Under the pieces are notes generated by a model that saw only the letters and a list, made by a program, of their open reading frames with translations, was not told the DNA's origin and made no database searches. Below are positions 12,094-42,997 of a stretch of 42,997 nucleotides of DNA, in pieces. Source of the DNA: a virus; the IMG/VR virus record IMGVR_UViG_3300029260_000512, positions 1 to 42,997 of that record; one strand, 5' to 3'. Position 1 is the first letter of the stretch, and each line of letters starts with the position of its first letter. A program made the translations under genes and the position numbers.

Positions 12094-12117
12094 AAGCACT
12101 CACCAAATAGCAGACAT

Positions 12118-19375: not shown

Positions 19376-19677
19376 TGAAACCGCACATCCTCACAGGCCC
19401 GCGCCGTAGGCACTGCCGCTGTCGCGTCTGTCGTGGGCGGCAAGTGAAAGCAAAGCACCCGGACGACTACGCCCGGCGCATCCGCTGCAAACACTGCGGC
19501 CAATTCAACACGCTGGTAGTCGACAAATGGGCAGATAACCGGGGCTGGCGAAAGTACACCTGCTATTGCGATGGCTACCACTTCCCGCACCGCATCCGCT
19601 CAGAATTTTGTTTTGAAAACCCAAACTACGGCGAACAAGAAGAACGCCGGTTAATGGCCTACGGGGTGATGGCATGA
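19375..19677 (+). CDS. Cys-rich zinc-finger-like protein
   Basis: CRCRVC...CKHCG...CYCDGYH. The ATG overlaps the upstream stop. Confidence 0.45.
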   Translation: MKPHILTGPRRRHCRCRVCRGRQVKAKHPDDYARRIRCKHCGQFNTLVVDKWADNRGWRKYTCYCDGYHFPHRIRSEFCFENPNYGEQEERRLMAYGVMA

Positions 19678-20189: not shown

Positions 20190-20194
20190 CGCAA
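20162..20194 (+). promoter_or_regulatory. Dispersed 33-bp module AGCGTTAAATAACGCTAGCACGCTATAACGCAA
   Basis: A 7-bp-arm palindrome AGCGTTA-AA-TAACGCT plus a TATAAC -10-like hexamer (20185..20190), 27 nt before the rdgC-like ATG. Confidence 0.55.
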
Positions 20195-20220
20195 ACAAAA
20201 CCGACACAGGAAGCCCCGCC

Positions 20221-21396
20221 ATGTTTTTCAAAAGCGCCAACGTCTACCGTTTACACGACGCCCCCGAACACACCGCCGAAACCCTCAACGACATGCTAAA
20301 AGGCGATGCCGCTAAACCGCTGGGCAATGCCGACGCCAAGCGCCACGGCTGGACACCGCCCGCCAGCCGCAACGCAGAGCTATTCATGCACGAAGTGCAG
20401 GGCCACCGCCTGTTTAGCATGCTCAAACAAGAGCGCCTACTACCCGGCAGCGTGATTAAAGACGCGGTAGAGGAACAGGTAGAAGCGCTAGAAGAGGAGG
20501 AAGGCCGCTTTCTCACGCGCAAAGAAAAGACCGCGATCAAAGAGCAAGTAACGGAATCGCTACTCCCCCGCGCCTTTGTTAAAACCACCAAAGTGTTCGC
20601 ATGGTGGGACGTAAAGCGCGGGCGCATCACCGTCAACAGCGCCAGCCGCTCGGTGTGCGAGGATCTATTAGACCTGCTACGCGAAACCCTGGGCAGCCTC
20701 AAAGCCACCCCGCACAGCACCCAAACGCTACCCGTACGCGCCATGACCACATGGCTAAACGACAAACCCAGCCGCCCCGCCAACCTAGCGCTTGGCGACG
20801 TGATCACCCTCAAAGATAAAGGCGATGATGGCGTATGGCGTGGCCGTCAGATCGACCCCGACAGCGACGAGATACAGCAAATGCTCGAAACCGGGCGGCA
20901 AGCGGTAGAACTGGCGATGACCGTCAACGACAACGTTTCATTCACCCTCAACGACGGCCTAACCCTCAAAAGCCTGCGCTTTGGTGACAAGCTGCTGGAA
21001 GAGGCAGACGCCCAAGACGACGGCGACGACGCCACCGCCCGCCTAGAAACCGACTTCTACCTAATGGCCAACGCCCTAGCCGAAGCGATCGACAGCCTAA
21101 CCGCCATGATGGGCGGGCCAGCTCAGCGCAGCGAGAACAGCGAGCGCGCCGTTCCCGTATCGCTCGATGAACCAGACACCGGCACCCACCCCGGCGAACA
21201 TATCGGCGGCTTTGAGAACGGCTTTGAACAAGAAGAGCCGTTATTGAAAGAGGCCATCGAGCTAGCCAAAACGAACAACTGTGACACGTTCACGGTTACG
21301 AAATTGCAGCGGCATTTCAAAATTGCGTACGACCGTGCCCAGCAGCTGCAAGCGCGACTAGAAAACGCCAACCCTCGCGGGCTACCTACCCCATGA
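20221..21396 (+). CDS. rdgC: RdgC-like recombination-associated protein with C-terminal FtsK-gamma-like winged helix
   Basis: The N-terminal 300 aa are colinear with E. coli RdgC (FFKSANVYRL, GWTPP, LLPGSVIK, SLLPRAF, LRETLGSL). The C-terminal TKLQRHFKIAYDRAQQLQARLE resembles the FtsK gamma motif (QRxxxIGYxRAxxxxxxLE). Confidence 0.75.
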   Translation: MFFKSANVYRLHDAPEHTAETLNDMLKGDAAKPLGNADAKRHGWTPPASRNAELFMHEVQGHRLFSMLKQERLLPGSVIKDAVEEQVEALEEEEGRFLTRKEKTAIKEQVTESLLPRAFVKTTKVFAWWDVKRGRITVNSASRSVCEDLLDLLRETLGSLKATPHSTQTLPVRAMTTWLNDKPSRPANLALGDVITLKDKGDDGVWRGRQIDPDSDEIQQMLETGRQAVELAMTVNDNVSFTLNDGLTLKSLRFGDKLLEEADAQDDGDDATARLETDFYLMANALAEAIDSLTAMMGGPAQRSENSERAVPVSLDEPDTGTHPGEHIGGFENGFEQEEPLLKEAIELAKTNNCDTFTVTKLQRHFKIAYDRAQQLQARLENANPRGLPTP

Positions 21397-21545
21397 ACAC
21401 CACCATCAACTACCGCTGCTACAACCCCAAATGCGACCAGGGCAACGCCCCCGGCTGGATGCTAGGCGCTAACGCCATTTGCCCCAAGTGCGGCCACTGG
21501 CTCACGCACCAGCCCAACGATAACGCCAGCGTTAAAAAACGCTAG
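21393..21545 (+). CDS. Zinc-ribbon mini-protein (50 aa), not in the ORF track
   Basis: ATGA overlap with the rdgC stop. Translates as MNTTINYRCYNPKCDQ...CPKCGHW. Confidence 0.45.
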   Translation: MNTTINYRCYNPKCDQGNAPGWMLGANAICPKCGHWLTHQPNDNASVKKR

Positions 21546-21560
21546 CACGCTATAACGCAA
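21528..21560 (+). promoter_or_regulatory. Dispersed 33-bp module (one arm mismatch)
   Basis: AGCGTTAAAAAACGCTAGCACGCTATAACGCAA. TATAAC lies at 21551..21556, 19 nt before the next ATG. Confidence 0.5.
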
Positions 21561-21578
21561 CCAACAGGAACCGATGCC

Positions 21579-21710
21579 ATGCCCACCCCGCTAATGCTAC
21601 TGATCGGGCTAGCCGCTGCCGCCATCGCCTACGCCGGGTGGCGGTGCAAACGCGAAATGGAACAGCTCGACCACAACGGCGACCCCATCGACCAGGACGA
21701 ACAGCCATGA
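21579..21710 (+). CDS. Small single-pass membrane peptide, copy A (43 aa)
   Basis: MPTPLMLLIGLAAAAIAYAGWRCKREMEQLDHNGDPIDQDEQP. About 92 percent nucleotide identity to 22412..22543. Confidence 0.5.
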   Translation: MPTPLMLLIGLAAAAIAYAGWRCKREMEQLDHNGDPIDQDEQP

Positions 21711-21952
21711 TCATCGACCACCGCGCCAAAAACGCCCAGCGCATTCCCTGCAAAGAGTTTCGCGGTGAATGCCGCATGTGCCAAAGCGGGTTTATTGCCC
21801 GCAGCGGGGTATGCTCGGGCGTCAACCCTGACACCGCCAGCCCGCCCGACTGCCTGCGTGACGAAGTGCCAGAACACCTCTGCCAGCCCAACGGCCTACC
21901 GCTGGGATGGGGCAAATTCACGCAGGATAGCGCCAGCGAGGCCGCCCAATGA
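21707..21952 (+). CDS. Cys-rich protein (81 aa)
   Basis: Start MIIDHR by ATGA overlap. Ends SASEAAQ*, like 22540..23016. Confidence 0.45.
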   Translation: MIIDHRAKNAQRIPCKEFRGECRMCQSGFIARSGVCSGVNPDTASPPDCLRDEVPEHLCQPNGLPLGWGKFTQDSASEAAQ

Positions 21953-22007
21953 TATTCATCACCCTTACCCGCGACGACATCGCCAAGGCCCGCCAGGAGA
22001 GCCAGGT

Positions 22008-22427
22008 ATGAGCTACGAATCATGGCGAATCAGCTACCAATCCAGCGAACAGGCCGCGCAAGCGGCCTATGCCCAGCTGCAGGCCGTTAGCGCTGCCGCC
22101 AAGGCACTCAGCGAGGCCACCAACGAACGCGATGCCGACGACGCCCAAGAGCGTTTAGACGCCGCCATAGGTGGGCAGCTAGAAAAAGCCATCGCCCTCA
22201 ACAACCTGCACGCCGCGCAGCACGCCATGCAGCAGTACGCCGAAGCCTGCAAAACCAACCACCACCCCGGCGAAACTTTCGGTATGTCGGTATCCGGGCC
22301 AACCGGATGCGCCAGCGCTCCACACTGCCTACGGGCCGCCAGGCTGGTGTTTTTAGACGCGGCGCGTCTGATCGAACACCGCATTGAAGAAGCCAAGCAG
22401 GAAACCACCCCATGCCCACCCCGCTAA
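22008..22427 (+). CDS. Hypothetical helical protein (139 aa)
   Basis: Start MSYESWR by ATGA overlap with a 20-codon mini-ORF (21949..22011). Confidence 0.45.
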   Translation: MSYESWRISYQSSEQAAQAAYAQLQAVSAAAKALSEATNERDADDAQERLDAAIGGQLEKAIALNNLHAAQHAMQQYAEACKTNHHPGETFGMSVSGPTGCASAPHCLRAARLVFLDAARLIEHRIEEAKQETTPCPPR

Positions 22428-22543
22428 TACTACTCATCGGCCTAGCCGTTGCCGCCGTCGCCTACGCCGGGTGGCAGTGCAAGTGCGAAATAGAACAGCT
22501 CGACCAGAACGGCGACCCCATCGACCAGGACGAACAGCCATGA
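22412..22543 (+). CDS. Small single-pass membrane peptide, copy B (43 aa)
   Basis: MPTPLILLIGLAVAAVAYAGWQCKCEIEQLDQNGDPIDQDEQP. Confidence 0.5.
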   Translation: MPTPLILLIGLAVAAVAYAGWQCKCEIEQLDQNGDPIDQDEQP

Positions 22544-23016
22544 CAGGAAACAGCACACGCACCCCCATACGCCCAAGCGGCGAAGAGTGGCAAGAGCTGG
22601 TCAACATGCTGTGCCTCATGTGCCACAAAATGGGCAACTGCGACGTAATAGAAGGGATGATAGAAATGAAGCACGGCGGCGCGTGGCCATCGGGCGGTTG
22701 GGTCACTGATCCAGGCTCGGGCGCTACCTGCCTGAGCTACGAACCTCGCCCGGTTCGCCAGCTGGAAGACAGCGAGCTAACCGACGCGCTCACAAGCGCC
22801 GTGCCCATGTGCCAAGGGTGCGCAGCCCGCAAAGGTAGCGACGCCTCGCAAAGCCTGCACACCCAACGCGACTTTAACTCAGCCGTTAACCGTGGCGGAT
22901 TGTTTGTATGCCATGAAGAAGGCAACCAAGGAAAGCCCTGCGGCGGCTGGTGTCACGCCGTGAAGCGCAAACGCGCCAGCCTGATCACCACCAGCGCCAG
23001 CGAGGCCGCCCAATGA
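22540..23016 (+). CDS. Cys-rich protein (158 aa)
   Basis: CLMCHKMGNC...CQGCAARKGS...FVCHEEGNQGKPCGGWCH. Ends SASEAAQ*. Confidence 0.5.
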   Translation: MTGNSTRTPIRPSGEEWQELVNMLCLMCHKMGNCDVIEGMIEMKHGGAWPSGGWVTDPGSGATCLSYEPRPVRQLEDSELTDALTSAVPMCQGCAARKGSDASQSLHTQRDFNSAVNRGGLFVCHEEGNQGKPCGGWCHAVKRKRASLITTSASEAAQ

Positions 23017-23249
23017 TATTCATCACCCTAAGCGGCATCGCCATCGGCATCGCCGTAGTGGGCCTAGTGTTCATCCACACGCGGACCATATCGCCTCACA
23101 TCATGCGCGCCTGCCGCATCATGCACGTCATCACCCTGACGATAAGCACCGCCACCATTACCACCGCCCTCGCCCACCTGGGCGAGCCACAAGCCTGCTG
23201 GCTGGTGGTGGATCTTATGGGGGTGGCCATTGACCCCCACCCGCACTAG
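23013..23249 (+). CDS. Small membrane protein (78 aa)
   Basis: The start MIFITL is shared with the 20-codon ORF at 21949. It has hydrophobic segments. Confidence 0.45.
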   Translation: MIFITLSGIAIGIAVVGLVFIHTRTISPHIMRACRIMHVITLTISTATITTALAHLGEPQACWLVVDLMGVAIDPHPH

Positions 23250-23501
23250 CGCTACTCTCCCCCTGTCGCTGCAAAATCAGCGACCGGGTTTGGAAGCCCG
23301 AACGGATATTGGCGCACTAGCGCCCCCTTTCATCGTGTAGGCGCTATTTTTGTGCCCGCATGATGCACTATGGCGGGCCGTGCGTGGGGCGCTTCGGCGC
23401 GCCGGGTTTCCAATGTCCTCGGTCTTCCAACCCGCGTACGGTTCGCCTCCATTGTTTGGAAGCAATGTGGCGAACTCCAACAGACTTGGAGATCCACTAA
23501 A
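23250..23501 (+). ncRNA. Highly structured leader or candidate regulatory RNA upstream of the ORF6N-like gene
   Basis: At least eight hairpins. They include two with identical loops TTTGGAAG (23285..23300 and 23450..23467), an antiterminator/terminator-like alternative (23311..23324 versus 23318..23351) and an SD-sequestering stem (23476..23490). Confidence 0.4.
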
Positions 23502-24284
23502 ATGAACATCCCCACCATTTCAGTTTCTGGCGTTCAGCTACCCTATATCGAGCACCAGCAACAACCCGTCGTCACTTTCACAATGATAGACACAGCGCAT
23601 GGCCGCCCAAGCGGTACAGCAAGAAAGCGCTTTAACGACAACAAGCGCCATTTTGTTGAAGGCGAAGACTACTATCCTATTGATTCTGATAGATTGTCCG
23701 AAATTCGGACAATCTATCCAGGCCTGTTTCCCGATGCCATGAAGCGCGTCACTTTCTTCACCGAAACCGGCTACCTCATGTTGGTCAAATCGTTTACCGA
23801 CGACCTCGCTTGGCAAGTGCAGCGCCAGCTCGTCAAAAGCTATTTCCGCGTAAAAGGGGCGATGCAGCCCACCGCCGCCGAGCCCATCCCCGCGCCCATC
23901 GACCACCGCCAGCGCGAACAGCTTACCAACGCCGCTAACGCCGTGTTTCGCAATTTCGGCGGCATGCGCCAAAGCGCCACCGGCTGGTTTTACAACGGCG
24001 TACGCACCGACTACTGCCTAAAGCGCATCGAAGATCTAAGCCAAGACGACTTCCCGGCAGTGATGGACCGCCTCCAAGCCCTACGTAACAACGTGCGCCA
24101 ATACGAAGATTTCCGGCACGATATCCAGCAGTCGTTTTTTAAAGAGGTGGTAGGCGAAGGCCACCCGTACACGGCCTGGGTCAGCAAGCTAGCCGGTGGC
24201 CAACACCACATCGGTAAGCGCCCGGACTGGAAAGCGATAGCCAAACAAGTGCTAATCCACAACGGTTTACTCACCAAACAGTAA
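23502..24284 (+). CDS. ORF6N/KilA-N-like DNA-binding protein (possible antirepressor)
   Basis: The N-terminal region FFTETGYLMLVKSFTDDLAWQVQRQLVKSYF resembles ORF6N-type domains. The start is at MNIPT. Confidence 0.5.
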   Translation: MNIPTISVSGVQLPYIEHQQQPVVTFTMIDTAHGRPSGTARKRFNDNKRHFVEGEDYYPIDSDRLSEIRTIYPGLFPDAMKRVTFFTETGYLMLVKSFTDDLAWQVQRQLVKSYFRVKGAMQPTAAEPIPAPIDHRQREQLTNAANAVFRNFGGMRQSATGWFYNGVRTDYCLKRIEDLSQDDFPAVMDRLQALRNNVRQYEDFRHDIQQSFFKEVVGEGHPYTAWVSKLAGGQHHIGKRPDWKAIAKQVLIHNGLLTKQ

Positions 24285-24307
24285 GCCCACCCGCGCCAGC
24301 AAGCCCA

Positions 24308-24331
24308 AGCCCGCCACCGTGCGGGCTTTTT
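24308..24331 (+). terminator. Intrinsic terminator AGCCCGC-CACCGT-GCGGGCT-T4
   Basis: Directly after the ORF6N-like gene. Confidence 0.7.
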
Positions 24332-24346
24332 GCTGCCTGAACATTC

Positions 24347-24469
24347 AGCGTTAAATAACGCTAGCGTTATAGCGTTTTATCTTGCACCCCTAGCGGCGCT
24401 TTTCTATACTAGCGTTATTGCGTGCTAGCGTTATTTCACGCTTTGACGCCAGCGCGCAATAACGCAACG
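24347..24469 (+). promoter_or_regulatory. par promoter flanked by ATAACGC/GCGTTAT heptads (candidate operator/centromere)
   Basis: TTGCAC (24382)-17-TATACT (24405). A forward module lies at 24347..24381 and a reverse module at 24408..24442. A further ATAACGC lies at 24459..24465. Confidence 0.55.
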
Positions 24470-24488
24470 ATCAACTAAGGGGAAACCA

Positions 24489-25133
24489 ATGGGATACAAG
24501 ATAGGGGTAGTCAGCCAAAAAGGGGGCGTGAGCAAAACCACCATTAGCCGCGCCATCGCTACCACGTTTGCCGCCGATGGCTGGAATGTAAAAATTGCCG
24601 ACCTCGATATTAACCAGGCATCATCGTTTTCATGGCTGCAACGACGCCTTAGCCGCAGCATCACGCCCACCGTGGCCGTTGAGCAATTTGGCAACGTGGC
24701 CAGCGCACTCAAGATGGCCGATAACTACGACCTTATGATTTTCGACGGTGCGCCCCATGCCTCCAAGGCCACCGCCGAAGTGGCCCGCCAGTCGGATTTA
24801 ATCATTCTGCCCACCGCCACCAGCGTTGACGATTTAGAGCCGCAAGTGCGCCTAGCCAACAAGCTCACCAGTGAAGACGGCGTACCCGCTGAACGCATCG
24901 CCTTTGCGCTCAGCAAAGTAGGCAACAGCCCGCTGCAGATCAAAGAAGCCCGCAACTACCTAAGCGCCACACCCTACTTTGTGCTGAGCGGCCAAGTACC
25001 CGAAAAAACCGCGTTTATACGCGCTCAAGATACCGGGCTTTCCATCGTCGAAACCCCCTTTAAAGGCCCGCGTAAACAAGCCGAAGAGCTGATAGAAAGC
25101 ATCATCGAACGCTTTAGCCAGCTGACTCAATAA
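24489..25133 (+). CDS. parA: ParA-family partition ATPase (small, type Ib-like)
   Basis: Deviant Walker A KGGVSKTT. 214 aa. Confidence 0.85.
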   Translation: MGYKIGVVSQKGGVSKTTISRAIATTFAADGWNVKIADLDINQASSFSWLQRRLSRSITPTVAVEQFGNVASALKMADNYDLMIFDGAPHASKATAEVARQSDLIILPTATSVDDLEPQVRLANKLTSEDGVPAERIAFALSKVGNSPLQIKEARNYLSATPYFVLSGQVPEKTAFIRAQDTGLSIVETPFKGPRKQAEELIESIIERFSQLTQ

Positions 25134-25150
25134 CGAAAGGAACCGCCCAC

Positions 25151-25399
25151 ATGGTGAAGAAGATCAACATACCCAAACCCAGCAGCAAAGGTGCACCGCC
25201 CACGGTAGACGCACCCGGCCCGGTAGTAGGCAACAACACCAGTAAGCCGGAAAGCGGCGAAAAGGTGCCGCTTAATTTCCGCGTTGATCCTGAAATGCGC
25301 CGTGAATTTAAAGCCTTCGCCGTAGAGCATGACATGCAAATGGTGGACGTACTCAAGGAAGCCTGGGCGGCGTACAAGCGGGAAAAAGGGAAGGGCTAG
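25151..25399 (+). CDS. Ribbon-helix-helix partner protein (ParG/omega-like)
   Basis: 82 aa. It has a disordered basic N-terminus followed by VPLNFRVDPEMRREFKAFAVEHDMQMVDVLKEAW, a typical RHH pattern. Lies immediately downstream of parA. Confidence 0.6.
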   Translation: MVKKINIPKPSSKGAPPTVDAPGPVVGNNTSKPESGEKVPLNFRVDPEMRREFKAFAVEHDMQMVDVLKEAWAAYKREKGKG

Positions 25400-25401
25400 C
25401 C

Positions 25402-25761
25402 GTGAATAATGAGATCCAGCAGTTTGACCGCCTGATACCTAGCTATGAGCTTGCACTGTGCGCCATTGCTGAACTTATGTCGCACCACTATAAGAGCGTG
25501 CTAGAAAGCACCTCGATAGGCCCATGCGAGGGTGGCTATACCGTCGCGGTCAACTGCGAAACCGGCACTGACACGGTGGGCTTCACCCTGCAGGAAGCGC
25601 CGTACAAAAGCTATCAGGAAGCGCTAAGCGCCTTTGGCGCGATGCTAGACGACATTACCGCCCGCTACGAAGGCCGGGCATCATGGAAAGATGAGGAGTG
25701 GTGGGACCAGCACCACGAAGACCTCAAAGCCCGCTACGGCTTTGAGCTGGTGAGCTTCTGA
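25402..25761 (+). CDS. Hypothetical protein
   Basis: 119 aa with a GTG start. The start is uncertain. Confidence 0.4.
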   Translation: MNNEIQQFDRLIPSYELALCAIAELMSHHYKSVLESTSIGPCEGGYTVAVNCETGTDTVGFTLQEAPYKSYQEALSAFGAMLDDITARYEGRASWKDEEWWDQHHEDLKARYGFELVSF

Positions 25762-25846
25762 AAGTGAGCCACACTAAAACGCCCACCCGGTGGCTAGACC
25801 GGGCGGGCGTTACGCAACGACATAATACCAATGGGGATTAGCTATC

Positions 25847-26002
25847 ATGTCAGCAACAGAATATACCACGATTGCACGCACACCGTTAAACCAGCTGCAT
25901 ACGCTGCCGCTGCACCTGCTGTGCGCCTACCTATACCAATGCCCAGCCATCAGCCGCCGTGCGCTAGAACGCATCGTGCGTATCCATGAGGAGGTCGTAT
26001 GA
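25847..26002 (+). CDS. Small protein (51 aa), not in the ORF track
   Basis: MSATEYTTIARTPLNQ... Its stop overlaps the next ATG (ATGA). Confidence 0.35.
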   Translation: MSATEYTTIARTPLNQLHTLPLHLLCAYLYQCPAISRRALERIVRIHEEVV

Positions 26003-26298
26003 TTAATTACTTCCAAGACAACCCAATGGAGGCGCTAACGCGCCTCATTAAAGCGGCCCAAGGAGACAGCCACCAAAGCCACCACGTGCGTCGATTCCTG
26101 CTTGGTTTGTACAACGCTGAAGAATGGCCCTTTGAAATGAATCGCCTCAGGGCGCTGGATCGTCAGCTGCAAATGGCCTGCTTTCGGGTGTTAGAGCTTG
26201 ATGTCGTGACATGTGAGCGTGATATACACGAGTACCTGGAAAATGGCGGCACTATTTTTCAGCAATTCTGGCAGCAGGAAAGCGCCAGCAGTGATTGA
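25999..26298 (+). CDS. Hypothetical protein
   Basis: 99 aa. RBS GAGGAG. Followed by a strong terminator. Confidence 0.5.
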   Translation: MINYFQDNPMEALTRLIKAAQGDSHQSHHVRRFLLGLYNAEEWPFEMNRLRALDRQLQMACFRVLELDVVTCERDIHEYLENGGTIFQQFWQQESASSD

Positions 26299-36822: not shown

Positions 36823-39800
36823 TTACTCCATGGTTTCGCGCCGCATCCGGTCAACGGTGCTGGCAATTTTGCTAGTGTGAGACGCCGTACCTTTATTGAT
36901 CGACTTCAGCTCGCCAACCTCCTTCTCCAAGTTTTCGACGTGCTTGATGAGCTGCTGAAAGGCTTTAAGCATTTCGCCACCACCACCGCCGCTACCTGCA
37001 AAATCGCGGAACGCCTGCGCCGCCGGGGCGGGCAATACGGTTTCGCTTCGGTGCAGCTCTGCCCGGTAGCCGTCAAACGGCACCGACCACAGGCCATCGG
37101 CATGACTGCCATCTAGCTGATTGGCGTAGGTTCTTCGCAGCAGGTCAGCCGCACCTGAGCCCTGCACGGTGTGCGAGCCACCCCCAGGCGTGAAGTACGT
37201 GGCCGAATCACCGTTATCTACCACCCGGTACCCGCTGCTTGATGATGACGCGGCGCTAGCACGAGAAGCCTCTGAGGCCGCCTTTGCTGCCGATGCCGCT
37301 GACGCCGCCGCCGAGGAAATGGCCGATGAAATAGCCGACTGCAGCCCGCCGATAGCCTCACCCACGCCCAGCACGCTGCCGTTGATGCTTTCCAGCCACG
37401 CCATTTGCCCTAGCTCGTTTTCAATTTGCAGCTGTTGCTGAACCAGCATTGAGTCCAGCGACTCCATTTCGCGGGCATACTGACGCTCAGCCGCTTGCAG
37501 CTGATTTTCTAGGGCCTTTAGGGACTGCTCTTCTACGCTCACTTGCGCTTCGGCGCGCTCCTCCAGCGCCGCAATCACGTTGGCGGTTTGGTAGAAATCG
37601 CGCTGGTAATCCGTAAACGACGAGAACAATCCCTCTGAGGGCTCAGATACCACCCCCAGCGCCTGCTCTAATTGCGCAGAATCACCCAGACCGCCGCTTG
37701 CCAGCGTGGACTGCAGGTAGTCTTGAGCGGCGCGGCGTGAGGCCATGCTTTCACGTCGGCGGGCATTCAGCAGCGTATCGAGCGAGTTGCTCAGCGTGTC
37801 GGCCACTGCAGTGCTTTCCTGCATCGCCTGCTGAACGGTTGAGATGTTGGCGTTAATAGAGGCGGTCGTGGCGCGGTAGGCGTTTTCCAGAATCTGCCGC
37901 TCTGCATTGACCGCCTTTTCCACCTGCTGATACGCACTCTGCACATCACCCAATGCCCAGATATGCGACTGCAATGCTTGGTTACTCGGGTCCAGGCTAG
38001 CCAGCTCGCGGCGGCGTAGCTCTGCCGTATTGCCCTGCAGAGATAACAGCTCACGTTCCAATCCGGCCCGCTCGCGGGCAATATCCGCCATGGCGCGCAT
38101 GGATTCGGCGTTGTCATCTATCGCCTCGCCTGACTCCACCGCCGCCGCCCGCTGCTCTTCCATCGCCGCGATGTACTGCGCTAGCGGCCCATTCAGTTGC
38201 AGGATTGTTGCTAGCTGCTCTTGCCCAGCCGCGCCCATCAGCTCCAGGCTTTCGACCACGTCCCGCACGCCCTCGCGGGTGGTGGGCAGCTCGCGACCCA
38301 TGCTGGCAAACGTGCTGGAAAGATCTTCGGCAAGGTGCCGCAGCTTCTCCTCTTCGGTGTAGAACGCGTCGTAGAAACTACCCAGCGAAGCGTTCAGGTT
38401 GCCGACGCCACCCATGAGCTGCGCCATGCCATCGGCGGCGCGCATAGCCCCGGCGGCGCTGGCGTCGAACTGCAAATTAAGGCGGGCGCTATTGCTGTCG
38501 AGGAGTTGCATGGCGTTAGCGGCCTGCACCACGCGCCCGGTGATTTGCTCGGCATTCAGCCCTAGGCCGCGCAGAGACGCGGAAAAATCACCGTCGATAA
38601 CATCAACGACCGCCAATGTGCGCGTGGCAAGCTGGTTAGCGATCCCGGCGGCGTCGCTGGCGTTGAGCCGCACAGCACGCACTGCCTCTGTCATCGCGTC
38701 AAGCTCTTGTTCGCTGCCCGCCACCGCTGCCAGGGCGTTATCCATCGCGGTGATGGAGTCGAGAAATGCTGTGGCATTCTCAAATCCGCCGAACGTCTCT
38801 TCTAGTCGTGCTGTCCCCTCGTCGGTAAAGCCCACCGCGCCAAACGCTCCACGGGAAACAACACCTGAACCATAGTCTTCAAAAACACCATGACCGCGAG
38901 TGTTAGAATCAACTGTAGCCAGCTCGAATTTAGGGGCGGTTTTACCGCCACCAAACAGGCTGCTAATGCCCTTAACGATGCCGTCAGTAATGCCCAGCCC
39001 TAGCACGTTATCGACCAGCAACGCGCCACCTACCCACGGCATGGCGGCGCTGGCGGCACCCATCAGGCCACCACCGCCCGCCGCTGCCGCGCCAGCAGCT
39101 GCGCTGCCAGCAAAGCCGGTATACGTGCCGGTGGCAGCAGCAGCACCAAAGCCGCTTGCATAACCAATCGGTGCGGCGGCTGAGGCACCAAAGCCCAACG
39201 CACTACCAATGCCACTAATGGCATCGCCCACGTAGGGCAGCTTTTTAGCGCCGTTGAATAGCGAGCCCATACCGTTAAGGTTGAAGCCACCGCCGCCCCC
39301 ACCGGACATGCCGGTTACCTGCTGGCCTAACAGCCCCTGCAGTTGCCCGGTAATTTGCACCGTCAGCGGGCGCAATAGCAGCGCGTTGCCAATTTCTGCA
39401 ATGCTGCTAATCAGCAAATCCTCTAGCTGATCCATCGCGTTGCCCGCGCCGGTCAGCAGCCCCTTGAACATTTCCACGCCCGCGTCATCTAGGCGTTGGC
39501 CGGTGTTCTCCACCATGTCGTCAAGAATTTGGGCAAGGTCGTTCGTTTCTAGCGCTAGCTCGTACTGCGCTTCACGCACGCCCTCTACCATGCGGGCGTA
39601 TTGGGCCGCGCCCATTTCACCCGCTGCGTAGCGTTCGTTAATCTGTTGTAGCTCAGCAGCCAGCGCCTCCACTTTCTGCCGGTGGCTGTCGTACTTGCCC
39701 ACCAGGGCGGCGGTCTGTTTTTCGTACTCTTCGGCACCGGTAGCGGCGCGCTGGTACTGCTCAGCGCTCCAGCGCACCGCTTCGCCGTAGGCTTCTTCGC

Positions 39801-42213
39801 TAATGGTTCCTTCGGCCAAGGCGCGATCCAGCACCGCTAGGCGTTCGATGTATTCCGCGTGGTCAGCCAGAAGCGGGTCCATCTCCTGCTGAACGCCTAC
39901 CAGGGCTTTTGCTTGGGCTTCGGCGGCTTGCTGGGCGGCTTGGGCTTGGCGTTGCGCGGTGCGCTCGGCTTCCTCGGCAGCGCGGCGTGATTCGGCGGCG
40001 GCTTCCTGCTGGGCTTTGCGCTGGTCTTTCAGCGCTTCATCCTGCACGGCCAAAAATACACTAACGCCACGCAGGTAGGCGGGCACATCCTCGCCCATCG
40101 CGTCTAGTGCGCGGTTAGCCGCGCCCATAGCTGAGCCACCGTCACGGGTGGCGGCGATGCTTTCGCGTAGGCGGTCGTTGTATTTCTTCCACGCATCCAG
40201 GGTGGTAGCTGAGGGCGCGCCACCGTTGACGGCTTGGCCGCTATTCTCGGCACCTTGGGCCACATCGTTAAACGCTGTTTCAAGCGTCTGCAGCAGCCCG
40301 CCAAGCTCTTCTACCGTAATGCTGCCTTCGCTGTATTCTGCTGCCCACAAGCGAATTTGACGCAGCGCACTATCGGGAACACCTAACTGATCCTGCAAGC
40401 CATTCAGCAGCTCATCAAGGCTTTGCGCGCCGCTCTCTACCGCCTCAAATCCGGCATTCACTTCATCAAAAAACGCACGCGCTTCGGCACCGCTAGCACC
40501 CTCAAAGCCGATGCTTAACACCTCTTCGCGGATTTTAGACAGCGCGCTACGGGCTTTTTCGACTTCCTCTTGGTAGCGGTCGCCCCACTTGATCATTGCC
40601 GCCCGCTGGCTTTCCACGCTCAGCTCTTTAAAGTCCGCAATCACTGTTTCAAGCGGGGCGTTCATATCGGTTAGCGAGCTGCTAACGTCGTCGCTGCTAT
40701 CGCGGAACAGGAAAAACGCCGTAGCGGCCAGCGTGGCCACGCCAAGGGGGCCACCCACTAACGCCATTGCACCAGCCGCGCCACGGCTAACCGCCGTTAG
40801 CGTGCGCTGGGTAGCCGTGTTCGCGGCCACCGCTGCCGTGTTGGCTGTCGCGGCGGCAGTGGTGGCGGTGGTGGCCCGCGCAAGATCCACCTTAGCAGCG
40901 GATAGCGTGCGGGCACTGGCGGCGCTTTGCACTTCGGCAGCATTCAAGGCGCGCTGAGCGGCGGCAGACTGAGTAGTTAACGCCATTTCAGTACGGCGAA
41001 TTTCCGCTAACCGCGTGAGCGATTGCTGCCGCCCGGTCGCGCTAATCTGTGCTTGCAGGCGCTGGGTTTCCAGCACGCGCTCTGCGGCCATTTGCTGCTG
41101 TGTGAGCTGAATAGAGCGCAGCTGAGAAGCCGCCTGCACCTGCGCTGCCTGCGCACGCTGTGCCGCATTCGCGGCGCTATTCAATGCCGCGACGCGCTCA
41201 GCCTCGGCACGGCGGGCCGTGGCCAGCGCCGCCCCGGCTTCACGCTCGGCGGTGATGCCTGCTTGAATGGCTACGGCGCGGTCTGCCTGCACTTTTTTGA
41301 TGCTGGCCAACGCAGAAGCGCCAAGAGCGTTTACCAGCCTTACGCCCAAAACAGTGCTTAACAACACCGCGCCATTGGCAACAGATCCCACAACTTCTTC
41401 AATGCCGCCATAGGCGGAAACTACCGTTACAGCACTTTCAGATAACGACACCAGAGAGGGCGCAAGATCTACTGCAACGGTATTAGCAAAGCCAGACGCT
41501 ATTGCATTTAAATTGTTTAATGCCTGATTGGCCTCTTTAAGGCTCTCAATATCAGACTGAGAAACAGTAATTCCAAGTTGCTCAGCTAATAGAATTTGCT
41601 GTCGTAGAGCCTCAGCATTGTCATCTAAGAGGGGTATTAGCAGGCTGGCATCATTAGCCAGCGACTCCATGAAAAAGATTTTTTCGCCCTGAGTGGCAAC
41701 GTCATCAAGAGCCTTGCCAATAGCCAGCAGCTGCTGGTCTGGGCTCATGCCCATTAGCTCATCAATGTTGAGGGTCAGGCGCTCAAAAAGGTCAGCAGCC
41801 TCACCCCCGCCAGTCGCGACAAAATCACCGATTTTTTCTGATACATCTTTGAAGATGTCGCCCATCTTCCCAGCGCCAAGGTTGACGCTTTGAGCTGCAA
41901 ATTCCCACTGCTGCAGAGTTTGCAAGCTAACGCCAATGGATCGAGAAAGAGCATCTTGCTCGGCAATATTGCGGGTTTGGCTAATAGCCATAGTGGCCAT
42001 AGCAGCCGCTGAAGCAGCAGTAAACGTAGCAAGGCGCTGAGCATGCACACCAACGCTTTCGTAGCTTGACGCCATTTCCTCACTTTGCCGCTGGGCGCGC
42101 TGCATTTCCTGCGTTAATTCTGCGTTGGCCTGCTCTAAATCACGGGTGGCCTTTACGCCACTAGAACTGTCGCCCTTAATAACAAACTCAGTGGTGTATT
42201 GCTTTGACGACAT
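36823..42213 (-). CDS. Tape measure protein
   Basis: 1796 aa. It has an Ala/Gln-rich coiled-coil and an internal Gly-rich hydrophobic block (GGGGGGFNLNG...GFGASAAAPIGY...). Lies downstream of G/G-T. Confidence 0.85.
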   Translation of the reverse strand: MSSKQYTTEFVIKGDSSSGVKATRDLEQANAELTQEMQRAQRQSEEMASSYESVGVHAQRLATFTAASAAAMATMAISQTRNIAEQDALSRSIGVSLQTLQQWEFAAQSVNLGAGKMGDIFKDVSEKIGDFVATGGGEAADLFERLTLNIDELMGMSPDQQLLAIGKALDDVATQGEKIFFMESLANDASLLIPLLDDNAEALRQQILLAEQLGITVSQSDIESLKEANQALNNLNAIASGFANTVAVDLAPSLVSLSESAVTVVSAYGGIEEVVGSVANGAVLLSTVLGVRLVNALGASALASIKKVQADRAVAIQAGITAEREAGAALATARRAEAERVAALNSAANAAQRAQAAQVQAASQLRSIQLTQQQMAAERVLETQRLQAQISATGRQQSLTRLAEIRRTEMALTTQSAAAQRALNAAEVQSAASARTLSAAKVDLARATTATTAAATANTAAVAANTATQRTLTAVSRGAAGAMALVGGPLGVATLAATAFFLFRDSSDDVSSSLTDMNAPLETVIADFKELSVESQRAAMIKWGDRYQEEVEKARSALSKIREEVLSIGFEGASGAEARAFFDEVNAGFEAVESGAQSLDELLNGLQDQLGVPDSALRQIRLWAAEYSEGSITVEELGGLLQTLETAFNDVAQGAENSGQAVNGGAPSATTLDAWKKYNDRLRESIAATRDGGSAMGAANRALDAMGEDVPAYLRGVSVFLAVQDEALKDQRKAQQEAAAESRRAAEEAERTAQRQAQAAQQAAEAQAKALVGVQQEMDPLLADHAEYIERLAVLDRALAEGTISEEAYGEAVRWSAEQYQRAATGAEEYEKQTAALVGKYDSHRQKVEALAAELQQINERYAAGEMGAAQYARMVEGVREAQYELALETNDLAQILDDMVENTGQRLDDAGVEMFKGLLTGAGNAMDQLEDLLISSIAEIGNALLLRPLTVQITGQLQGLLGQQVTGMSGGGGGGFNLNGMGSLFNGAKKLPYVGDAISGIGSALGFGASAAAPIGYASGFGAAAATGTYTGFAGSAAAGAAAAGGGGLMGAASAAMPWVGGALLVDNVLGLGITDGIVKGISSLFGGGKTAPKFELATVDSNTRGHGVFEDYGSGVVSRGAFGAVGFTDEGTARLEETFGGFENATAFLDSITAMDNALAAVAGSEQELDAMTEAVRAVRLNASDAAGIANQLATRTLAVVDVIDGDFSASLRGLGLNAEQITGRVVQAANAMQLLDSNSARLNLQFDASAAGAMRAADGMAQLMGGVGNLNASLGSFYDAFYTEEEKLRHLAEDLSSTFASMGRELPTTREGVRDVVESLELMGAAGQEQLATILQLNGPLAQYIAAMEEQRAAAVESGEAIDDNAESMRAMADIARERAGLERELLSLQGNTAELRRRELASLDPSNQALQSHIWALGDVQSAYQQVEKAVNAERQILENAYRATTASINANISTVQQAMQESTAVADTLSNSLDTLLNARRRESMASRRAAQDYLQSTLASGGLGDSAQLEQALGVVSEPSEGLFSSFTDYQRDFYQTANVIAALEERAEAQVSVEEQSLKALENQLQAAERQYAREMESLDSMLVQQQLQIENELGQMAWLESINGSVLGVGEAIGGLQSAISSAISSAAASAASAAKAASEASRASAASSSSSGYRVVDNGDSATYFTPGGGSHTVQGSGAADLLRRTYANQLDGSHADGLWSVPFDGYRAELHRSETVLPAPAAQAFRDFAGSGGGGGEMLKAFQQLIKHVENLEKEVGELKSINKGTASHTSKIASTVDRMRRETME

Positions 42214-42239: not shown

Positions 42240-42262
42240 AAAAAACCCGCCAAGTGGCGGGC
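42240..42262 (-). terminator. Intrinsic terminator CCCGCC-ACTT-GGCGGG-T6 between the moron and the tape measure gene
   Basis: Read on the minus strand, 27 nt upstream of the tape measure ATG. Confidence 0.75.
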
Positions 42263-42300
42263 TGTTTGAATGTTTGCTGTGAAGGGCTAAAACATAAGGG

Positions 42301-42960
42301 TTACACCAACTGCAAAAGCGCCCCTCTAAGGGCTTCTATCCGGGTGTAGTCTGCGGGGTTAACCTGTTGCCCATTACCTGAACTGGCAATATGGCCCTTG
42401 ATACGATCCACCATAAACATCTTCATAGAGCCGCTTTTCAGGCACTGCGCTTTTAAAAACACACGGCCACCCTTAGTGCTTATACGTTGGATGCTCACAT
42501 GCTGCTTTCGCGGGGCCGGGTCGCTTTGGCCTTGATAACTGAAAAACACCTCTACCGGCTGCTCTAAGTCGTCAGCCATCGGCTTAGCAATAGGCTTTGA
42601 CGGCCTAGCCGCTGGCATCGGCTGGGCGGGCAGATCAGGCGGTGCAGGGTCTGATTTTTCAGCCTCTCTTTTCAGCTTTTCCTCTGCATTCACTTTCTCT
42701 AATTGCCGATGAATATCGTCTTGATCAAAGCGCTTCTTCTTGCTCTGATTAGAGCTAAATACAGATAACCAAACGCCAAGCCCAACAATAGCCAGTGCGC
42801 CGAAAAAGACACCTAAGACCTCAAGCCATCCATATAAGCTCACACCCAAAAGCAATAGAAAAAGCGCAAGAAAACCTGAAATAACCTTCATCACTCCAGG
42901 TAAAAGTTTGGTGGCATACAGCAGCACCACCAAGATTAGAAACAGCAGAAACACCACCAT
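42301..42960 (-). CDS. Moron: polytopic membrane protein with a C-terminal WYL-like domain
   Basis: 219 aa. It has three predicted TM helices at the N-terminus, a charged linker and a C-terminal VEVFFSYQG...RKQHVSIQRI...RVFLKAQCLKSGSMKMFMVDRIKG resembling the WYL-domain pattern. It has its own promoter-like and terminator elements. Confidence 0.6.
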   Translation of the reverse strand: MVVFLLFLILVVLLYATKLLPGVMKVISGFLALFLLLLGVSLYGWLEVLGVFFGALAIVGLGVWLSVFSSNQSKKKRFDQDDIHRQLEKVNAEEKLKREAEKSDPAPPDLPAQPMPAARPSKPIAKPMADDLEQPVEVFFSYQGQSDPAPRKQHVSIQRISTKGGRVFLKAQCLKSGSMKMFMVDRIKGHIASSGNGQQVNPADYTRIEALRGALLQLV

Positions 42961-42997
42961 GACAGCCCCCTAGCGTTATTTGTTGGCAGGTATCCAA
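42857..42997. repeat. Terminal overlap copy B, identical to 1..141
   Basis: Same 141-bp string as the window start. Confidence 0.9.

What the first reader, a model, noticed from the sequence alone, without database searches (positions are those of the whole stretch)
42240..42997. Self-contained moron between the G/G-T chaperones and the tape measure gene: a membrane-anchored WYL-like protein
A 219-aa ORF is inserted exactly between the tail chaperone genes and the tape measure gene.

It has its own sigma70-like promoter, TTGATA-17-AATAAC (147..119 after the circular junction). It also has its own strong terminator, CCCGCC-ACTT-GGCGGG-T6 (42262..42240), 27 nt before the tape measure ATG. That is unusual inside a late operon.

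The protein has three predicted TM helices and a charged linker. Its C-terminal ~85 aa follow the WYL-domain pattern (FSY...R..V.I.RI...FLKA.C......FMVDRI).

As I recall, the HK97 gp15 moron occupies the equivalent slot and is a membrane superinfection-exclusion protein acting on tape-measure-dependent DNA entry. A membrane-tethered WYL-type sensor domain in this slot is, to my knowledge, not a described combination.
Basis: partly seen in the sequence, partly recalled or inferred. Interest (0 to 1): 0.65.

Follow-up and report, generated by a model that had tools for sequence, protein, structure and literature searches.

The report
Membrane-tethered WYL protein in tail-gene moron slot
A temperate phage carries, between its tail-chaperone and tape-measure genes, an add-on gene for an inner-membrane protein whose cytoplasmic end is a WYL nucleic-acid-sensing domain; this combination was not found described, it recurs in prophages, and it most likely guards the cell against incoming DNA.

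Summary
ORF 42301..42960 (-) encodes a conserved 219-aa protein. It has three N-terminal TM helices (predicted N-out, C-in), a charged helix, a Pro-rich tether and a C-terminal WYL domain. The WYL call rests on Pfam PF13280 above its cut-off, a profile hit to PafBC (E 7e-13), and an AF2 model (pLDDT 91.5) whose top 19 PDB matches are all WYL proteins.

The gene lies between the G/G-T chaperones and the tape measure gene. It is followed by a strong terminator that is conserved in relatives. Its GC is 48.8% against 58.6% for the genome. This layout matches the HK97 gp15 moron, but there is no homology to gp15 or to P22 SieA.

The claimed promoter is present as sequence but weak and unproven. The terminator belongs to the slot rather than to this gene.

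New findings:
- The TM module and the WYL domain are separate adjacent genes in sister phages, a Rosetta-stone link.
- The slot is never empty in 10 relatives and always encodes envelope proteins.
- Other membrane-anchored WYL proteins sit just downstream of the repressor gene in P2-like prophages.

Best reading: a prophage entry guard (superinfection exclusion or defence) with a membrane-tethered nucleic-acid-binding domain. The function is inferred. I rate it a new variant of a known kind.

The parts
42301..42960 (-). CDS of the 219-aa membrane-tethered WYL protein (ORF219), stop codon included
   Evidence: ORF list. Homologues at 50-61% identity over 89-94% of its length. An identical protein occurs on IMG/VR contig L018.
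42757..42960 (-). TM module, residues 1-68: three TM helices (2-17, 27-46, 49-68). TM1 and the following GLLPG turn are highly conserved. Predicted N-out, C-in.
   Evidence: Hydropathy and charge distribution. AF2 helices 2-16, 23-43 and 45-101. The family occurs as stand-alone 85-166-aa proteins.
42652..42756 (-). Juxtamembrane basic patch (KKKR) and charged helix, residues 69-103, with the conserved motif QLEK-N-AE
   Evidence: Alignments A1 and A3. AF2 shows a continuous helix to about residue 101.
42553..42651 (-). Pro-rich flexible tether, residues 104-136
   Evidence: Sequence. pLDDT below 50 for residues 103-152 in the full-length model. This stretch varies between homologues.
42304..42552 (-). 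Cytoplasmic WYL domain (beta-barrel, residues 137-193) plus a short strand and a C-terminal helix (to residue 219). Net basic: 12 K/R against 5 D/E.
   Evidence: Pfam PF13280 at 22.9 bits against a cut-off of 21.8. PADLOC WYL model E 3e-5. The subfamily profile hits PafBC 6sj9 at E 6.7e-13, and also PafC, BrxR and CapW. AF2 pLDDT 91.5. The top 19 Foldseek PDB hits are all WYL proteins.
42240..42263 (-). Intrinsic terminator (8-bp GC-rich stem, 4-nt loop, T6) between ORF219 and the tape-measure ribosome-binding site
   Evidence: Scan and fold. It is conserved upstream of the tape-measure gene in 12 other loci. The outer stem pair varies as A-U, G-C or G-U and the loops differ.
42961..42997 (-). 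5' leader: GGGGG Shine-Dalgarno (42966..42970) and the claimed -10 AATAAC (42975..42980). It continues across the junction into 142..181.
   Evidence: Sequence. The promoter scan does not accept it.
119..181 (-). The same leader seen at the window start. It holds the claimed -10 (119..124), the claimed -35 TTGATA (142..147) and two palindromes, TATTGG-N7-CCAACA (125..143) and TTAAC-N3-GTTAA (149..161), up to the T stop codon at 182.
   Evidence: Sequence. The palindromes are unique in the window. The leader is conserved in L004, L013, L014, L015, L016 and L021.
1..141 (.). Terminal redundancy of the circular assembly (identical to 42857..42997). It contains the first 104 nt of ORF219.
   Evidence: Exact-overlap test.
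182..924 (-). Tail assembly chaperone genes: G (517..924) and the T frame (ends at 182; carries DUF1799), joined by a -1 slippery heptamer A AAA AAC at 520..526
   Evidence: ORFs. Pfam DUF1799 E 6e-11. The heptamer and the downstream frame were read from the sequence.
36823..42213 (-). Tape measure protein gene (1796 aa), immediately downstream of the slot
   Evidence: ORF. PHROG tape-measure families, E down to 2e-48.

Best explanation
ORF219 is the cargo of a hyper-variable accessory slot between tail chaperone T and the tape measure gene of a temperate, lambda-like siphophage. The host is probably in Halomonadaceae (Vreelandella/Halomonas).

The protein sits in the inner membrane through a three-helix module predicted to be N-out, C-in. 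From there it projects a charged helical stalk, a Pro-rich tether of about 30 residues and a basic WYL beta-barrel into the cytoplasm.

The most likely role is protection of the lysogen, or of the already infected cell, against incoming DNA, that is superinfection exclusion or defence acting at the inner membrane. On this reading the TM module is the membrane-acting core, working like HK97 gp15 or P22 SieA on the DNA-delivery conduit formed by the tape measure. The tethered WYL domain binds a nucleic-acid ligand at the inner face of the membrane. By family precedent the ligand is single-stranded DNA, for example the cohesive end or another single-stranded stretch of the entering genome. Binding would either hold that DNA or sense its arrival.

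Shown here: the gene, its architecture, the WYL fold, the slot, the terminator, the mosaic and low-GC origin, the genetic linkage of the TM and WYL modules, and the lysogeny-operon position of related membrane-anchored WYL genes.

Inferred only: expression in lysogens, the exclusion phenotype, the ligand and any contact with the tape measure.
For: - Architecture and fold.
- Temperate phage: integrase and a CI-like HTH+S24 repressor.
- Same layout as the HK97 gp15 moron, namely chaperones, a small membrane protein, a terminator and the tape measure. gp15 is a prophage-expressed inner-membrane exclusion protein whose block depends on the tail region of the incoming phage (PMC3594210; PMC10883804).
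- Moron signatures: GC 48.8% against 58.6%. Similarity to sister phages breaks inside the gene and resumes about 40 nt past its stop.
- Slot census: in 10 relatives the slot is never empty, is always low in GC and always encodes envelope proteins, either lipoproteins, signal-peptide proteins or the TM module. Envelope proteins are the class to which the characterised exclusion proteins cited belong.
- In L033 the TM-module gene lies antisense to the late operon, so late read-through cannot express it.
- Rosetta stone: in L015, L016 and L020 a 458-472-aa protein (SAP-like segment, WYL, C-terminal amphipathic helix) and a 122-aa TM protein are adjacent genes in the same slot. ORF219 combines the TM module (about 56% identity) with that WYL domain (59% identity, E 9e-37).
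- The WYL subfamily is membrane-targeted in nearly every architecture found. The devices are N-terminal TM helices, C-terminal tail anchors or an amphipathic helix.
- In P2-like prophages such genes lie 3-35 nt downstream of the repressor gene.
- Precedents for membrane-localised DNA binders acting on entering phage DNA: SNIPE (PMC13190303) and Kiwa (PMC11785009).
- WYL domains of CapW and DriD bind ssDNA (PMC11662680).
Against: - There are no expression or phenotype data.
- The claimed promoter is weak, so lysogenic expression of this copy is unproven. The gene is co-oriented with the late operon and could be a late gene only.
- There is no homology to gp15/YebO, SieA, SNIPE or Kiwa components.
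- Two canonical WYL arginines are replaced in this clade (Q153, M183), so the ligand may not be ssDNA.
- There is no effector domain, so it is unclear how binding would stop infection.
- The family is tiny: 28 representatives at E<=1e-3 among 1.84 billion proteins. Generalisation therefore rests on few lineages.
Confidence: 0.42

Rival explanations
1. Abortive-infection sensor-effector. The WYL domain senses an infection or damage signal (ssDNA, RNA or a nucleotide). It then drives oligomerisation of the three-helix module, which permeabilises or depolarises the inner membrane and kills the infected cell before progeny form.
For: - In characterised proteins the WYL domain is a ligand sensor that controls an output domain (PMC11662680; PMC4012209). 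Here the usual HTH output is replaced by a TM module.
- The TM module has the layout of a class I holin (my own knowledge of lambda S105): three TM helices, N-out and C-in, with a charged C-terminal tail. TM3 is rich in Gly and Ala.
- Three family members give weak hits to the SLATT_1 2TM effector domain, best E 0.017.
- Sensor and TM partner occur as two adjacent genes in sister phages, as in many two-gene defence systems.
Against: - TM-only versions exist with no WYL partner in the slot (L021, L006, L033). That would be hazardous for an unregulated pore-former.
- The SLATT hits are not significant.
- The protein matches no PADLOC effector model.
- Other cargo of the slot is lipoproteins and secreted proteins, which fits surface or entry exclusion better than suicide modules.
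Confidence: 0.2
2. A lytic-cycle function for the phage itself. The protein would be a membrane tether for phage DNA, comparable to phi29 p16.7 (a membrane protein that binds ssDNA and recruits replicating DNA to the membrane). Alternatively it would help tape-measure or tail assembly or DNA ejection. It would be expressed simply as part of the late transcript.
For: - The gene has the same orientation as the late operon and a good Shine-Dalgarno, and no convincing promoter of its own.
- The plan of TM anchor, helical stalk and nucleic-acid-binding domain resembles p16.7 (PMC4974454).
- The gene is always next to the tape-measure gene in the full-length forms.
Against: - The slot content differs between near-identical phages: a fusion, two genes, TM only, or only a lipoprotein or secreted protein. 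No single cargo is therefore needed for virion production.
- GC is low and the gene is mosaic.
- A terminator follows the gene.
- The antisense copy in L033 cannot be a late-operon gene.
- Related WYL genes sit in the repressor operon of P2-like prophages.
Confidence: 0.12
3. A lysogeny or induction regulator. The WYL domain senses ssDNA from DNA damage and modulates the prophage switch, acting like an antirepressor or as a partner of the repressor. Membrane tethering would keep it inactive or localised.
For: - WYL regulators such as DriD, PafBC and CapW are ssDNA-activated DNA-damage sensors.
- In P2-like prophages the membrane-anchored WYL gene directly follows the HTH_3 repressor gene.
- In relatives the same tail slot carries antirepressor-like (P22_AR_N, ORF6N, pRha) and Arc genes.
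Against: - ORF219 has no DNA-binding output domain and no antirepressor domain.
- The window phage already has an S24-type, presumably RecA-sensitive repressor and a C4-RNA/antirepressor module elsewhere.
- This model does not explain the highly conserved TM module.
Confidence: 0.08

Closest known systems
HK97 gp15 moron (YebO-like superinfection exclusion protein)
   Same: The genomic slot and layout are identical: chaperone G/G-T, a small inner-membrane protein gene, an intrinsic terminator, then the tape measure. Both are add-on genes. Both have TM segments followed by a charged cytoplasmic helix.
   Different: No homology is detectable: BLASTP E 0.92, hhalign probability 1.9% and no YebO Pfam hit in 17 family members. 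gp15 has 62 aa and one TM helix; ORF219 has 219 aa, three TM helices and a WYL domain. The promoter and the exclusion phenotype were shown for gp15 but not here.
P22 SieA
   Same: SieA is a prophage-encoded inner-membrane protein with three predicted TM helices that blocks DNA delivery. It is encoded inside the virion-gene region, next to an Arc/antirepressor (immI) module. The slot in relative L006 likewise mixes the TM module with Arc and antirepressor-like genes.
   Different: There is no homology (hhalign probability 0.2%). SieA has no WYL or other nucleic-acid-binding domain. The P22 sieA record annotates its own promoter.
SNIPE (PD-lambda-1; membrane-bound nuclease, Saxton et al. 2026, PMC13190303)
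   Same: Both have an N-out TM anchor with cytoplasmic domains held at the inner face of the membrane. SNIPE has a DNA-binding domain, acts on DNA during injection and associates with tape measure proteins.
   Different: ORF219 has neither DUF4041 nor a GIY-YIG nuclease. Its binding domain is WYL, and no catalytic effector is present.
Kiwa (KwaA membrane protein plus KwaB DNA binder; PMC11785009)
   Same: Kiwa is a two-component design, a small multi-TM protein plus a DNA-binding protein assembled at the membrane, and it binds ejected phage DNA. The two-gene version in L015 and L020 (TM122 plus a 458-472-aa SAP/WYL protein) has the same logic.
   Different: There is no match to KwaA or KwaB models in PADLOC. 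The folds differ. ORF219 is prophage-borne and fuses both parts.
wHTH-WYL-WCX transcription factors (CapW, BrxR, DriD, PafBC)
   Same: They share the WYL beta-barrel. These proteins are the best sequence-profile and structural matches. Basic residues flank the W-Y-L strand: R163-VFL-K167 here against RWHVR in CapW.
   Different: ORF219 has no HTH and no full WCX domain. Its output is a membrane module, not DNA-binding transcriptional control. Two canonical arginines are replaced (Q153, M183).
phi29 p16.7
   Same: It is a phage integral membrane protein that binds ssDNA and brings it to the membrane.
   Different: From my own knowledge, p16.7 is an early replication-module gene with one TM helix and a different DNA-binding fold. 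No comparison was run because no sequence was at hand.

Membership tests
WYL domain (Pfam PF13280) | Score at or above the curated Pfam gathering threshold | tested here: met
   22.9 bits against a cut-off of 21.8, E 8.7e-5, residues 138-188. Relatives score 25.6-49.4 bits. PADLOC WYL model E 3e-5.
WYL domain (Pfam PF13280) | Sequence-profile relationship to experimentally solved WYL domains | tested here: met
   The profile of 14 subfamily domains hits PafBC 6sj9 at E 6.7e-13, PafC 7p5x at 2.3e-6, CapW 7tb5 at 1.1e-3 and BrxR 7t8k at 2.9e-3.
WYL domain (Pfam PF13280) | Sm/SH3-like five-stranded beta-barrel fold | tested here: met
   AF2 model with pLDDT 91.5 and pTM 0.79, showing five strands. 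The top 19 Foldseek PDB hits are CapW, BrxR, PafBC and DriD, with probability 1.00 and TM-score 0.52-0.61.
WYL domain (Pfam PF13280) | Conserved basic ligand-contact residues (arginines around the W-Y-L strand and in the F-R-x-D-R motif) | tested here: inconclusive
   R163, K167, K180 and R186 are retained. Q153 and M183 replace canonical arginines (alignments; CapW contacts from PMC11662680).
WYL domain (Pfam PF13280) | Binds a nucleic-acid or nucleotide ligand | not testable with these tools
   This needs EMSA or anisotropy with the purified domain.
wHTH-WYL-WCX transcription factors (CapW/BrxR/DriD/PafBC) | N-terminal winged-HTH DNA-binding domain | tested here: not met
   No HTH family appears in Pfam or NCBIfam at E<=10. 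The N-terminus is three TM helices.
Moron (Juhala/Hendrix sense) | Own terminator downstream | tested here: met
   Note that the terminator is conserved at the end of the slot for every kind of cargo.
Moron (Juhala/Hendrix sense) | Own promoter upstream | tested here: inconclusive
   TTGATA-17-AATAAC is present, but the consensus scan rejects it and it lies too close to the ATG. The leader is conserved as a whole. An antisense homologue in L033 must have its own promoter.
Moron (Juhala/Hendrix sense) | Nucleotide composition different from neighbours, and presence or absence among otherwise similar phages | tested here: met
   GC 48.8% against 58.6% for the genome and 59.5% for the tape-measure gene. 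Flanks are 91-95% identical to L021 while the cargo differs. Slot census.
Moron (Juhala/Hendrix sense) | Expressed from the repressed prophage | not testable with these tools
   This needs lysogen RNA-seq or 5'-RACE.
HK97 gp15 / YebO family | Sequence homology to gp15/YebO (Pfam YebO) | tested here: not met
   BLASTP E 0.92. hhalign probability 1.9%. No YebO hit in 17 members at E<=10.
HK97 gp15 / YebO family | Blocks DNA entry of tape-measure-dependent phages | not testable with these tools
   This needs plating and DNA-entry assays.
P22 SieA family | Sequence homology to SieA | tested here: not met
   hhalign probability 0.2%.
SNIPE | DUF4041 domain plus GIY-YIG nuclease domain | tested here: not met
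   Pfam and PADLOC scans at E<=10 return only WYL.
Kiwa | KwaA and KwaB (DUF4868) homologues | tested here: not met
   PADLOC returns only generic WYL hits for ORF219 and the 472-aa WYL protein. The TM122 protein (P0009) gives only a weak LeoBC hit (E 3.6e-4). None matches a Kwa model.
Class I holin | Three TM helices, N-out and C-in, with a charged C-terminal tail | tested here: inconclusive
   The predicted layout is compatible, but there is no holin family hit in Pfam or PHROGs.
Class I holin | Encoded in the lysis cassette with endolysin and spanins | tested here: not met
   The lysis cassette (endolysin, Rz/Rz1 and a 99-aa upstream ORF) is at 10792..12099 (-), about 11.7 kb away around the circle.

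The most novel reading that the evidence does not exclude
Membrane-tethered WYL proteins may form an undescribed class of prophage-encoded guards of DNA entry. The tether can be an N-terminal TM module, a C-terminal tail anchor or an amphipathic helix, and the protein can be fused or split into two genes. On this reading they recognise single-stranded DNA, such as cohesive ends or conjugative or replicative ssDNA, at the cytoplasmic face of the inner membrane. They would block or signal its arrival without a nuclease, a self/non-self discrimination by location like SNIPE and Kiwa but built on a WYL sensor.
Probability: 0.2. Interest if true: 0.8.

Novelty: new variant of a known kind. Interest (0 to 1): 0.6.

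Why it matters
WYL domains are known almost only as soluble ligand sensors that switch transcription factors or CRISPR accessory proteins. Here a WYL domain is wired to a conserved membrane module. It sits in the classical exclusion-gene slot next to the tape measure gene, and the two parts are genetically linked as split and fused versions.

Related membrane-anchored WYL genes lie in the repressor operon of P2-like prophages. If the function is confirmed, it would add a new sensing or binding module to the few understood mechanisms of injection-stage exclusion. It would also give a small, tractable system of 219 aa, or of 122 plus about 460 aa. That system could address how cells distinguish entering DNA by location, and what ligand a WYL domain sees at the membrane.

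The slot census also shows that in this phage group the chaperone/tape-measure junction is a dedicated, terminator-bounded landing pad for envelope-protein cargo.

Tried and rejected
- The full-length AF2 model from the 10-sequence alignment was poor (pLDDT 51). I used it only for secondary structure.
- tblastn and megablast against 50,697 GenBank phages found nothing for the protein or for the 6-kb region.
- NCBIfam gave only noise. PHROGs gave only a marginal 'membrane protein' hit, phrog_944 at E 0.016.
- The PDB sequence search with the full-length profile gave only noise. The domain profile was needed.
- The word-indexed search with the WYL-domain alignment added only 4 proteins.
- A scan of viral contigs with alignment A2 failed because no stretch was conserved enough. 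A scan with P0039 found nothing.
- Homology of the TM module to gp15/YebO or to SieA is rejected.
- 'ORF219 is the phage holin' is rejected, because a separate lysis cassette exists.
- I looked for a better sigma-70 promoter in the 200 nt upstream by eye and by scan and found none.
- I asked whether the leader palindromes are repeated at the immunity region. They are unique in the window.
- Literature searches for membrane-bound WYL proteins or WYL in superinfection exclusion found nothing relevant.
- Rfam and tRNA scans found nothing in the finding's region.
Full report
**1. What is in the sequence**

The window is a circular assembly. Bases 1..141 repeat 42857..42997 exactly, so the genome is 42,856 bp and features near the window end continue at base 142.

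On the minus strand the gene order is as follows:
- major tail tube, 1044..2015 (Phage_tube_2);
- a G-like ORF, 517..924;
- a T-frame ORF ending at 182 that carries DUF1799;
- a 77-nt leader;
- ORF219, 42301..42960, ATG start, 219 aa;
- an 87-nt spacer with a hairpin and T6 at 42263..42240;
- the 1796-aa tape measure gene, 36823..42213 (PHROG tape-measure families).

G ends in GCA AAA AAC TAA. After a -1 slip on A AAA AAC (520..526), reading continues into the T frame as ...KKLNDLGRAW.... The G/G-T assignment is therefore sound.

The phage is temperate. It has an integrase at 12341..13609 and a CI-like HTH plus S24 repressor at 17914..18546. Its lysis cassette lies elsewhere, at 10792..12099.

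**2.

The ORF, its position, the terminator and the three hydrophobic helices are all as described.

The promoter string TTGATA-17-AATAAC is present at 147..119. Three points count against it as evidence:
- Its -10 lacks the near-invariant final T, and the consensus scan does not call it.
- The -10 ends only 14 nt before the ATG, so a usual start site would fall in or beyond the GGGGG Shine-Dalgarno.
- The whole 80-nt leader is conserved among relatives, so conservation says nothing specific about the hexamers.

The leader also contains two palindromes, TTAAC-N3-GTTAA and TATTGG-N7-CCAACA. Both are unique in the window. I cannot explain them.

**3. The protein**

Hydropathy and charge and the AF2 secondary structure give the following plan.

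| Residues | Feature |
|---|---|
| 2-17 | TM1 |
| 18-26 | basic loop (K18, K25) |
| 27-46 | TM2 |
| 49-68 | TM3 |
| from 69 | KKKR patch, then a charged helix to about residue 101 |
| 104-136 | Pro-rich, low-confidence tether |
| 137-219 | beta-rich domain ending in a helix |

By the positive-inside rule the N-terminus is outside and the C-terminal domain is cytoplasmic. This is an inference, not a measurement.

The C-terminal domain is a WYL domain by every test available:
- Pfam PF13280 scores above its gathering threshold.
- The PADLOC WYL model hits at E 3e-5.
- A profile of 14 subfamily domains hits solved WYL domains: PafBC at E 6.7e-13, and also PafC, CapW and BrxR.
- The AF2 model of residues 127-219 has pLDDT 91.5. 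Its 19 best PDB matches are all WYL proteins, namely CapW, BrxR, PafBC and DriD.

The domain is basic, with 12 K/R against 5 D/E. It keeps R163 and K167 flanking the 'VFL' strand, matching RWHVR in CapW, where those arginines contact ssDNA (PMC11662680). It also keeps R186. In this clade Q153 and M183 replace two canonical arginines, so the ligand is uncertain.

**4. Relatives**

The family is very small. The word-indexed search of 5.8 billion proteins found 10 members. An exhaustive HMMER search of 1.84 billion representatives found 28 at E<=1e-3. These fall into two separable modules.

*The TM module.* It occurs alone as 85-166-aa proteins. TM1 and the following turn (LLFLILVVLLYxxGLLPG) are strikingly conserved, and the cytoplasmic helix carries a QL-K-N-AEQ motif. 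It matches no Pfam, PHROG or PADLOC family convincingly.

*The WYL subfamily.* It occurs in other architectures, and nearly all of them are membrane-targeted too:
- one N-terminal TM helix plus WYL, 148-161 aa;
- TM plus WYL plus BRCT;
- zinc ribbon plus TM plus WYL;
- an N-terminal SAP-like region plus WYL plus a C-terminal TM tail anchor;
- a SAP-like region plus WYL plus a C-terminal amphipathic helix, KKPGFISRLLAKLGG. From my own knowledge this resembles the MinD membrane-targeting sequence.

**5. Genomic context**

All four full-length homologues lie immediately upstream of the tape-measure gene, between it and the chaperone genes. One of them is in a Vreelandella venusta prophage.

In sister phages L015, L016 and L020 the same slot holds two genes: a 458-472-aa SAP/WYL/amphipathic-helix protein, followed by a 122-aa TM-module protein. 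ORF219's WYL domain is 59% identical to the former (E 9e-37). Its N-terminus is about 56% identical to the latter. This split-versus-fused relationship argues that the membrane module and the WYL protein work together.

L021 has tail genes 91-95% identical to the window at the nucleotide level. It carries the TM-only gene plus a lipoprotein gene instead.

BLASTN breakpoints show that ORF219 is mosaic:
- Similarity to L021 runs through T, the leader and the first 115 nt of the gene. It then vanishes until about 40 nt past the stop codon.
- Similarity to L013 is interrupted between codons of about 38 and 131.

Remnants of the T 3' end and a duplicated tape-measure 5' end separate cassettes in L015, L016, L021 and L004. 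This suggests that cassettes are exchanged by recombination in the flanking homology.

**6. Slot census**

I looked at ten IMG/VR relatives found through the T protein, at 54-99% identity.
- The slot is never empty. It spans 361-2018 nt.
- Its GC is always lower than that of its flanks, 0.43-0.56 against 0.58-0.64.
- It always encodes envelope proteins: lipoproteins, signal-peptide proteins, the TM module, or the TM and WYL combinations.

In nine of the ten, and in L001, L004 and L013-L015, the slot ends with the same terminator hairpin and T-run just before a conserved tape-measure ribosome-binding site. The outer stem pair varies as A-U, G-C or G-U, and the loops differ. The terminator is thus a fixture of the slot rather than of ORF219. 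How late transcription passes it is unknown; antitermination is an inference.

In L033 the TM-module gene lies on the strand opposite to the late operon. There it must be transcribed from its own promoter.

**7. Independent support for prophage-phase use**

In P2-like prophages, membrane-anchored WYL genes of three different architectures (148 aa, 161 aa, and 323 aa with BRCT) lie 3-35 nt downstream of the HTH_3 repressor gene. They sit between it and tail gene D (L008-L011, L035). That is the position of a lysogeny operon.

These are distant relatives, at 26-32% identity in the WYL domain only. The argument is therefore supportive, not decisive.

**8. Comparison with known systems**

- **HK97.** The HK97 record shows the same layout: gp13/14, then Gp15 'moron product' (62 aa), a putative terminator and the tape measure. 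gp15 is a prophage-expressed inner-membrane exclusion protein whose block depends on the incoming phage's tail and tape-measure region (PMC3594210; PMC10883804). ORF219 is not homologous to gp15/YebO.
- **P22 SieA.** SieA is a three-TM inner-membrane protein next to immI. ORF219 is not homologous to it either.
- **SNIPE.** It lacks SNIPE's DUF4041 and GIY-YIG domains.
- **Kiwa.** It lacks Kiwa's components.

SNIPE and Kiwa nevertheless show that membrane-localised DNA binders can act on phage DNA as it is injected. ORF219 therefore works, at most, like these systems. It is a member only of the WYL domain family.

**9. Mechanism**

My preferred explanation (confidence about 0.4) is an inner-membrane entry guard. 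The TM module acts at the site where the tape-measure conduit delivers DNA. The tethered, basic WYL barrel binds a nucleic-acid ligand at the inner face of the membrane.

The rivals are:
- an abortive-infection sensor-effector, in which WYL gates a holin-like three-TM module (about 0.2);
- a lytic-cycle DNA-membrane tether like phi29 p16.7 (about 0.12);
- a damage-sensing modulator of the lysogenic switch (about 0.08).

The variable, dispensable nature of the slot and its all-envelope cargo argue against an essential lytic function. The existence of TM-only versions argues against an unregulated pore-former. No expression or phenotype data exist, so function remains inferred.

**10. Novelty and score**

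The slot, the moron concept, membrane exclusion proteins and WYL domains are all known. I did not find three things described in the searchable literature or in PADLOC or PHROGs:
- the fusion of a WYL domain to a conserved membrane module;
- its split-gene counterpart;
- the recurrent membrane targeting of this WYL subfamily in prophage accessory positions.

I rate it a new variant of a known kind, with interest 0.6.

Noticed in passing
window 23252..23453 (+), next to ORF 23370..24284 (+): Rfam gathering-level hits to c4-a1b1 targets (68 bits), isrK (57 bits) and C4 antisense RNA (64 bits). They lie at the 5' end of an ORF6N antirepressor-like gene. This is a P1/P7-type immI (C4 RNA/ant) module in a lambda-like Halomonas-type phage.
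   Followed up: no
window 1..141 and 42857..42997: An exact 141-nt terminal redundancy. The window is a circularly closed assembly of 42,856 bp, and ORF219's first 104 nt appear twice.
   Followed up: yes
L028-L034 and L026 (IMG/VR relatives), slot between T and the tape-measure gene: In 10 relatives the slot is never empty. It always holds low-GC genes for envelope proteins (lipoproteins, signal-peptide proteins, the TM module), bounded by a conserved terminator before the tape-measure ribosome-binding site.
   Followed up: yes
L033 7220..7483 (-): An 87-aa TM-module homologue sits in the same slot but antisense to the late operon, so it needs its own promoter.
   Followed up: partly
L008/L009 7001..7447; L010 5330..5776; L011 7001..7486; L035 4749..5720: In P2-like prophages, membrane-anchored WYL genes (148 aa, 161 aa, and 323 aa with BRCT) lie 3-35 nt downstream of the HTH_3 repressor gene, between it and tail gene D.
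   Followed up: partly
L004 7638..7961; L015 about 6590..6700; L021 6340..6410: Recombination scars lie between cassettes. L004 has a 107-aa duplicated tape-measure N-terminus with its own upstream terminator. L015, L016 and L021 carry remnants of the T 3' end.
   Followed up: partly
tape-measure genes of L004 (8749..14997), L015 (7147..12729), L020 (7032..12698): The tape measure proteins of these relatives carry EF-hand calcium-binding loops (Pfam EF-hand_7; motifs such as DVNGDGIITKQE). The window's tape measure has none by a regex check.
   Followed up: partly
window 125..161: Two palindromes in the ORF219 leader, TATTGG-N7-CCAACA and TTAAC-N3-GTTAA, are unique in the genome and conserved in six related loci. 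No regulator has been identified.
   Followed up: partly
window 520..526 (-): A canonical -1 slippery heptamer A AAA AAC lies at the last codons of G and gives the G-T fusion.
   Followed up: yes
window 12100..12340: The integrase gene (12341..13609, -) lies directly upstream, on the same strand, of the lysis/terminase/head/tail gene string. The plus-strand early genes (about 18899..26298), which include rdgC and parA-like genes, run the opposite way, unlike the lambda layout. attP and the late promoter were not located.
   Followed up: no
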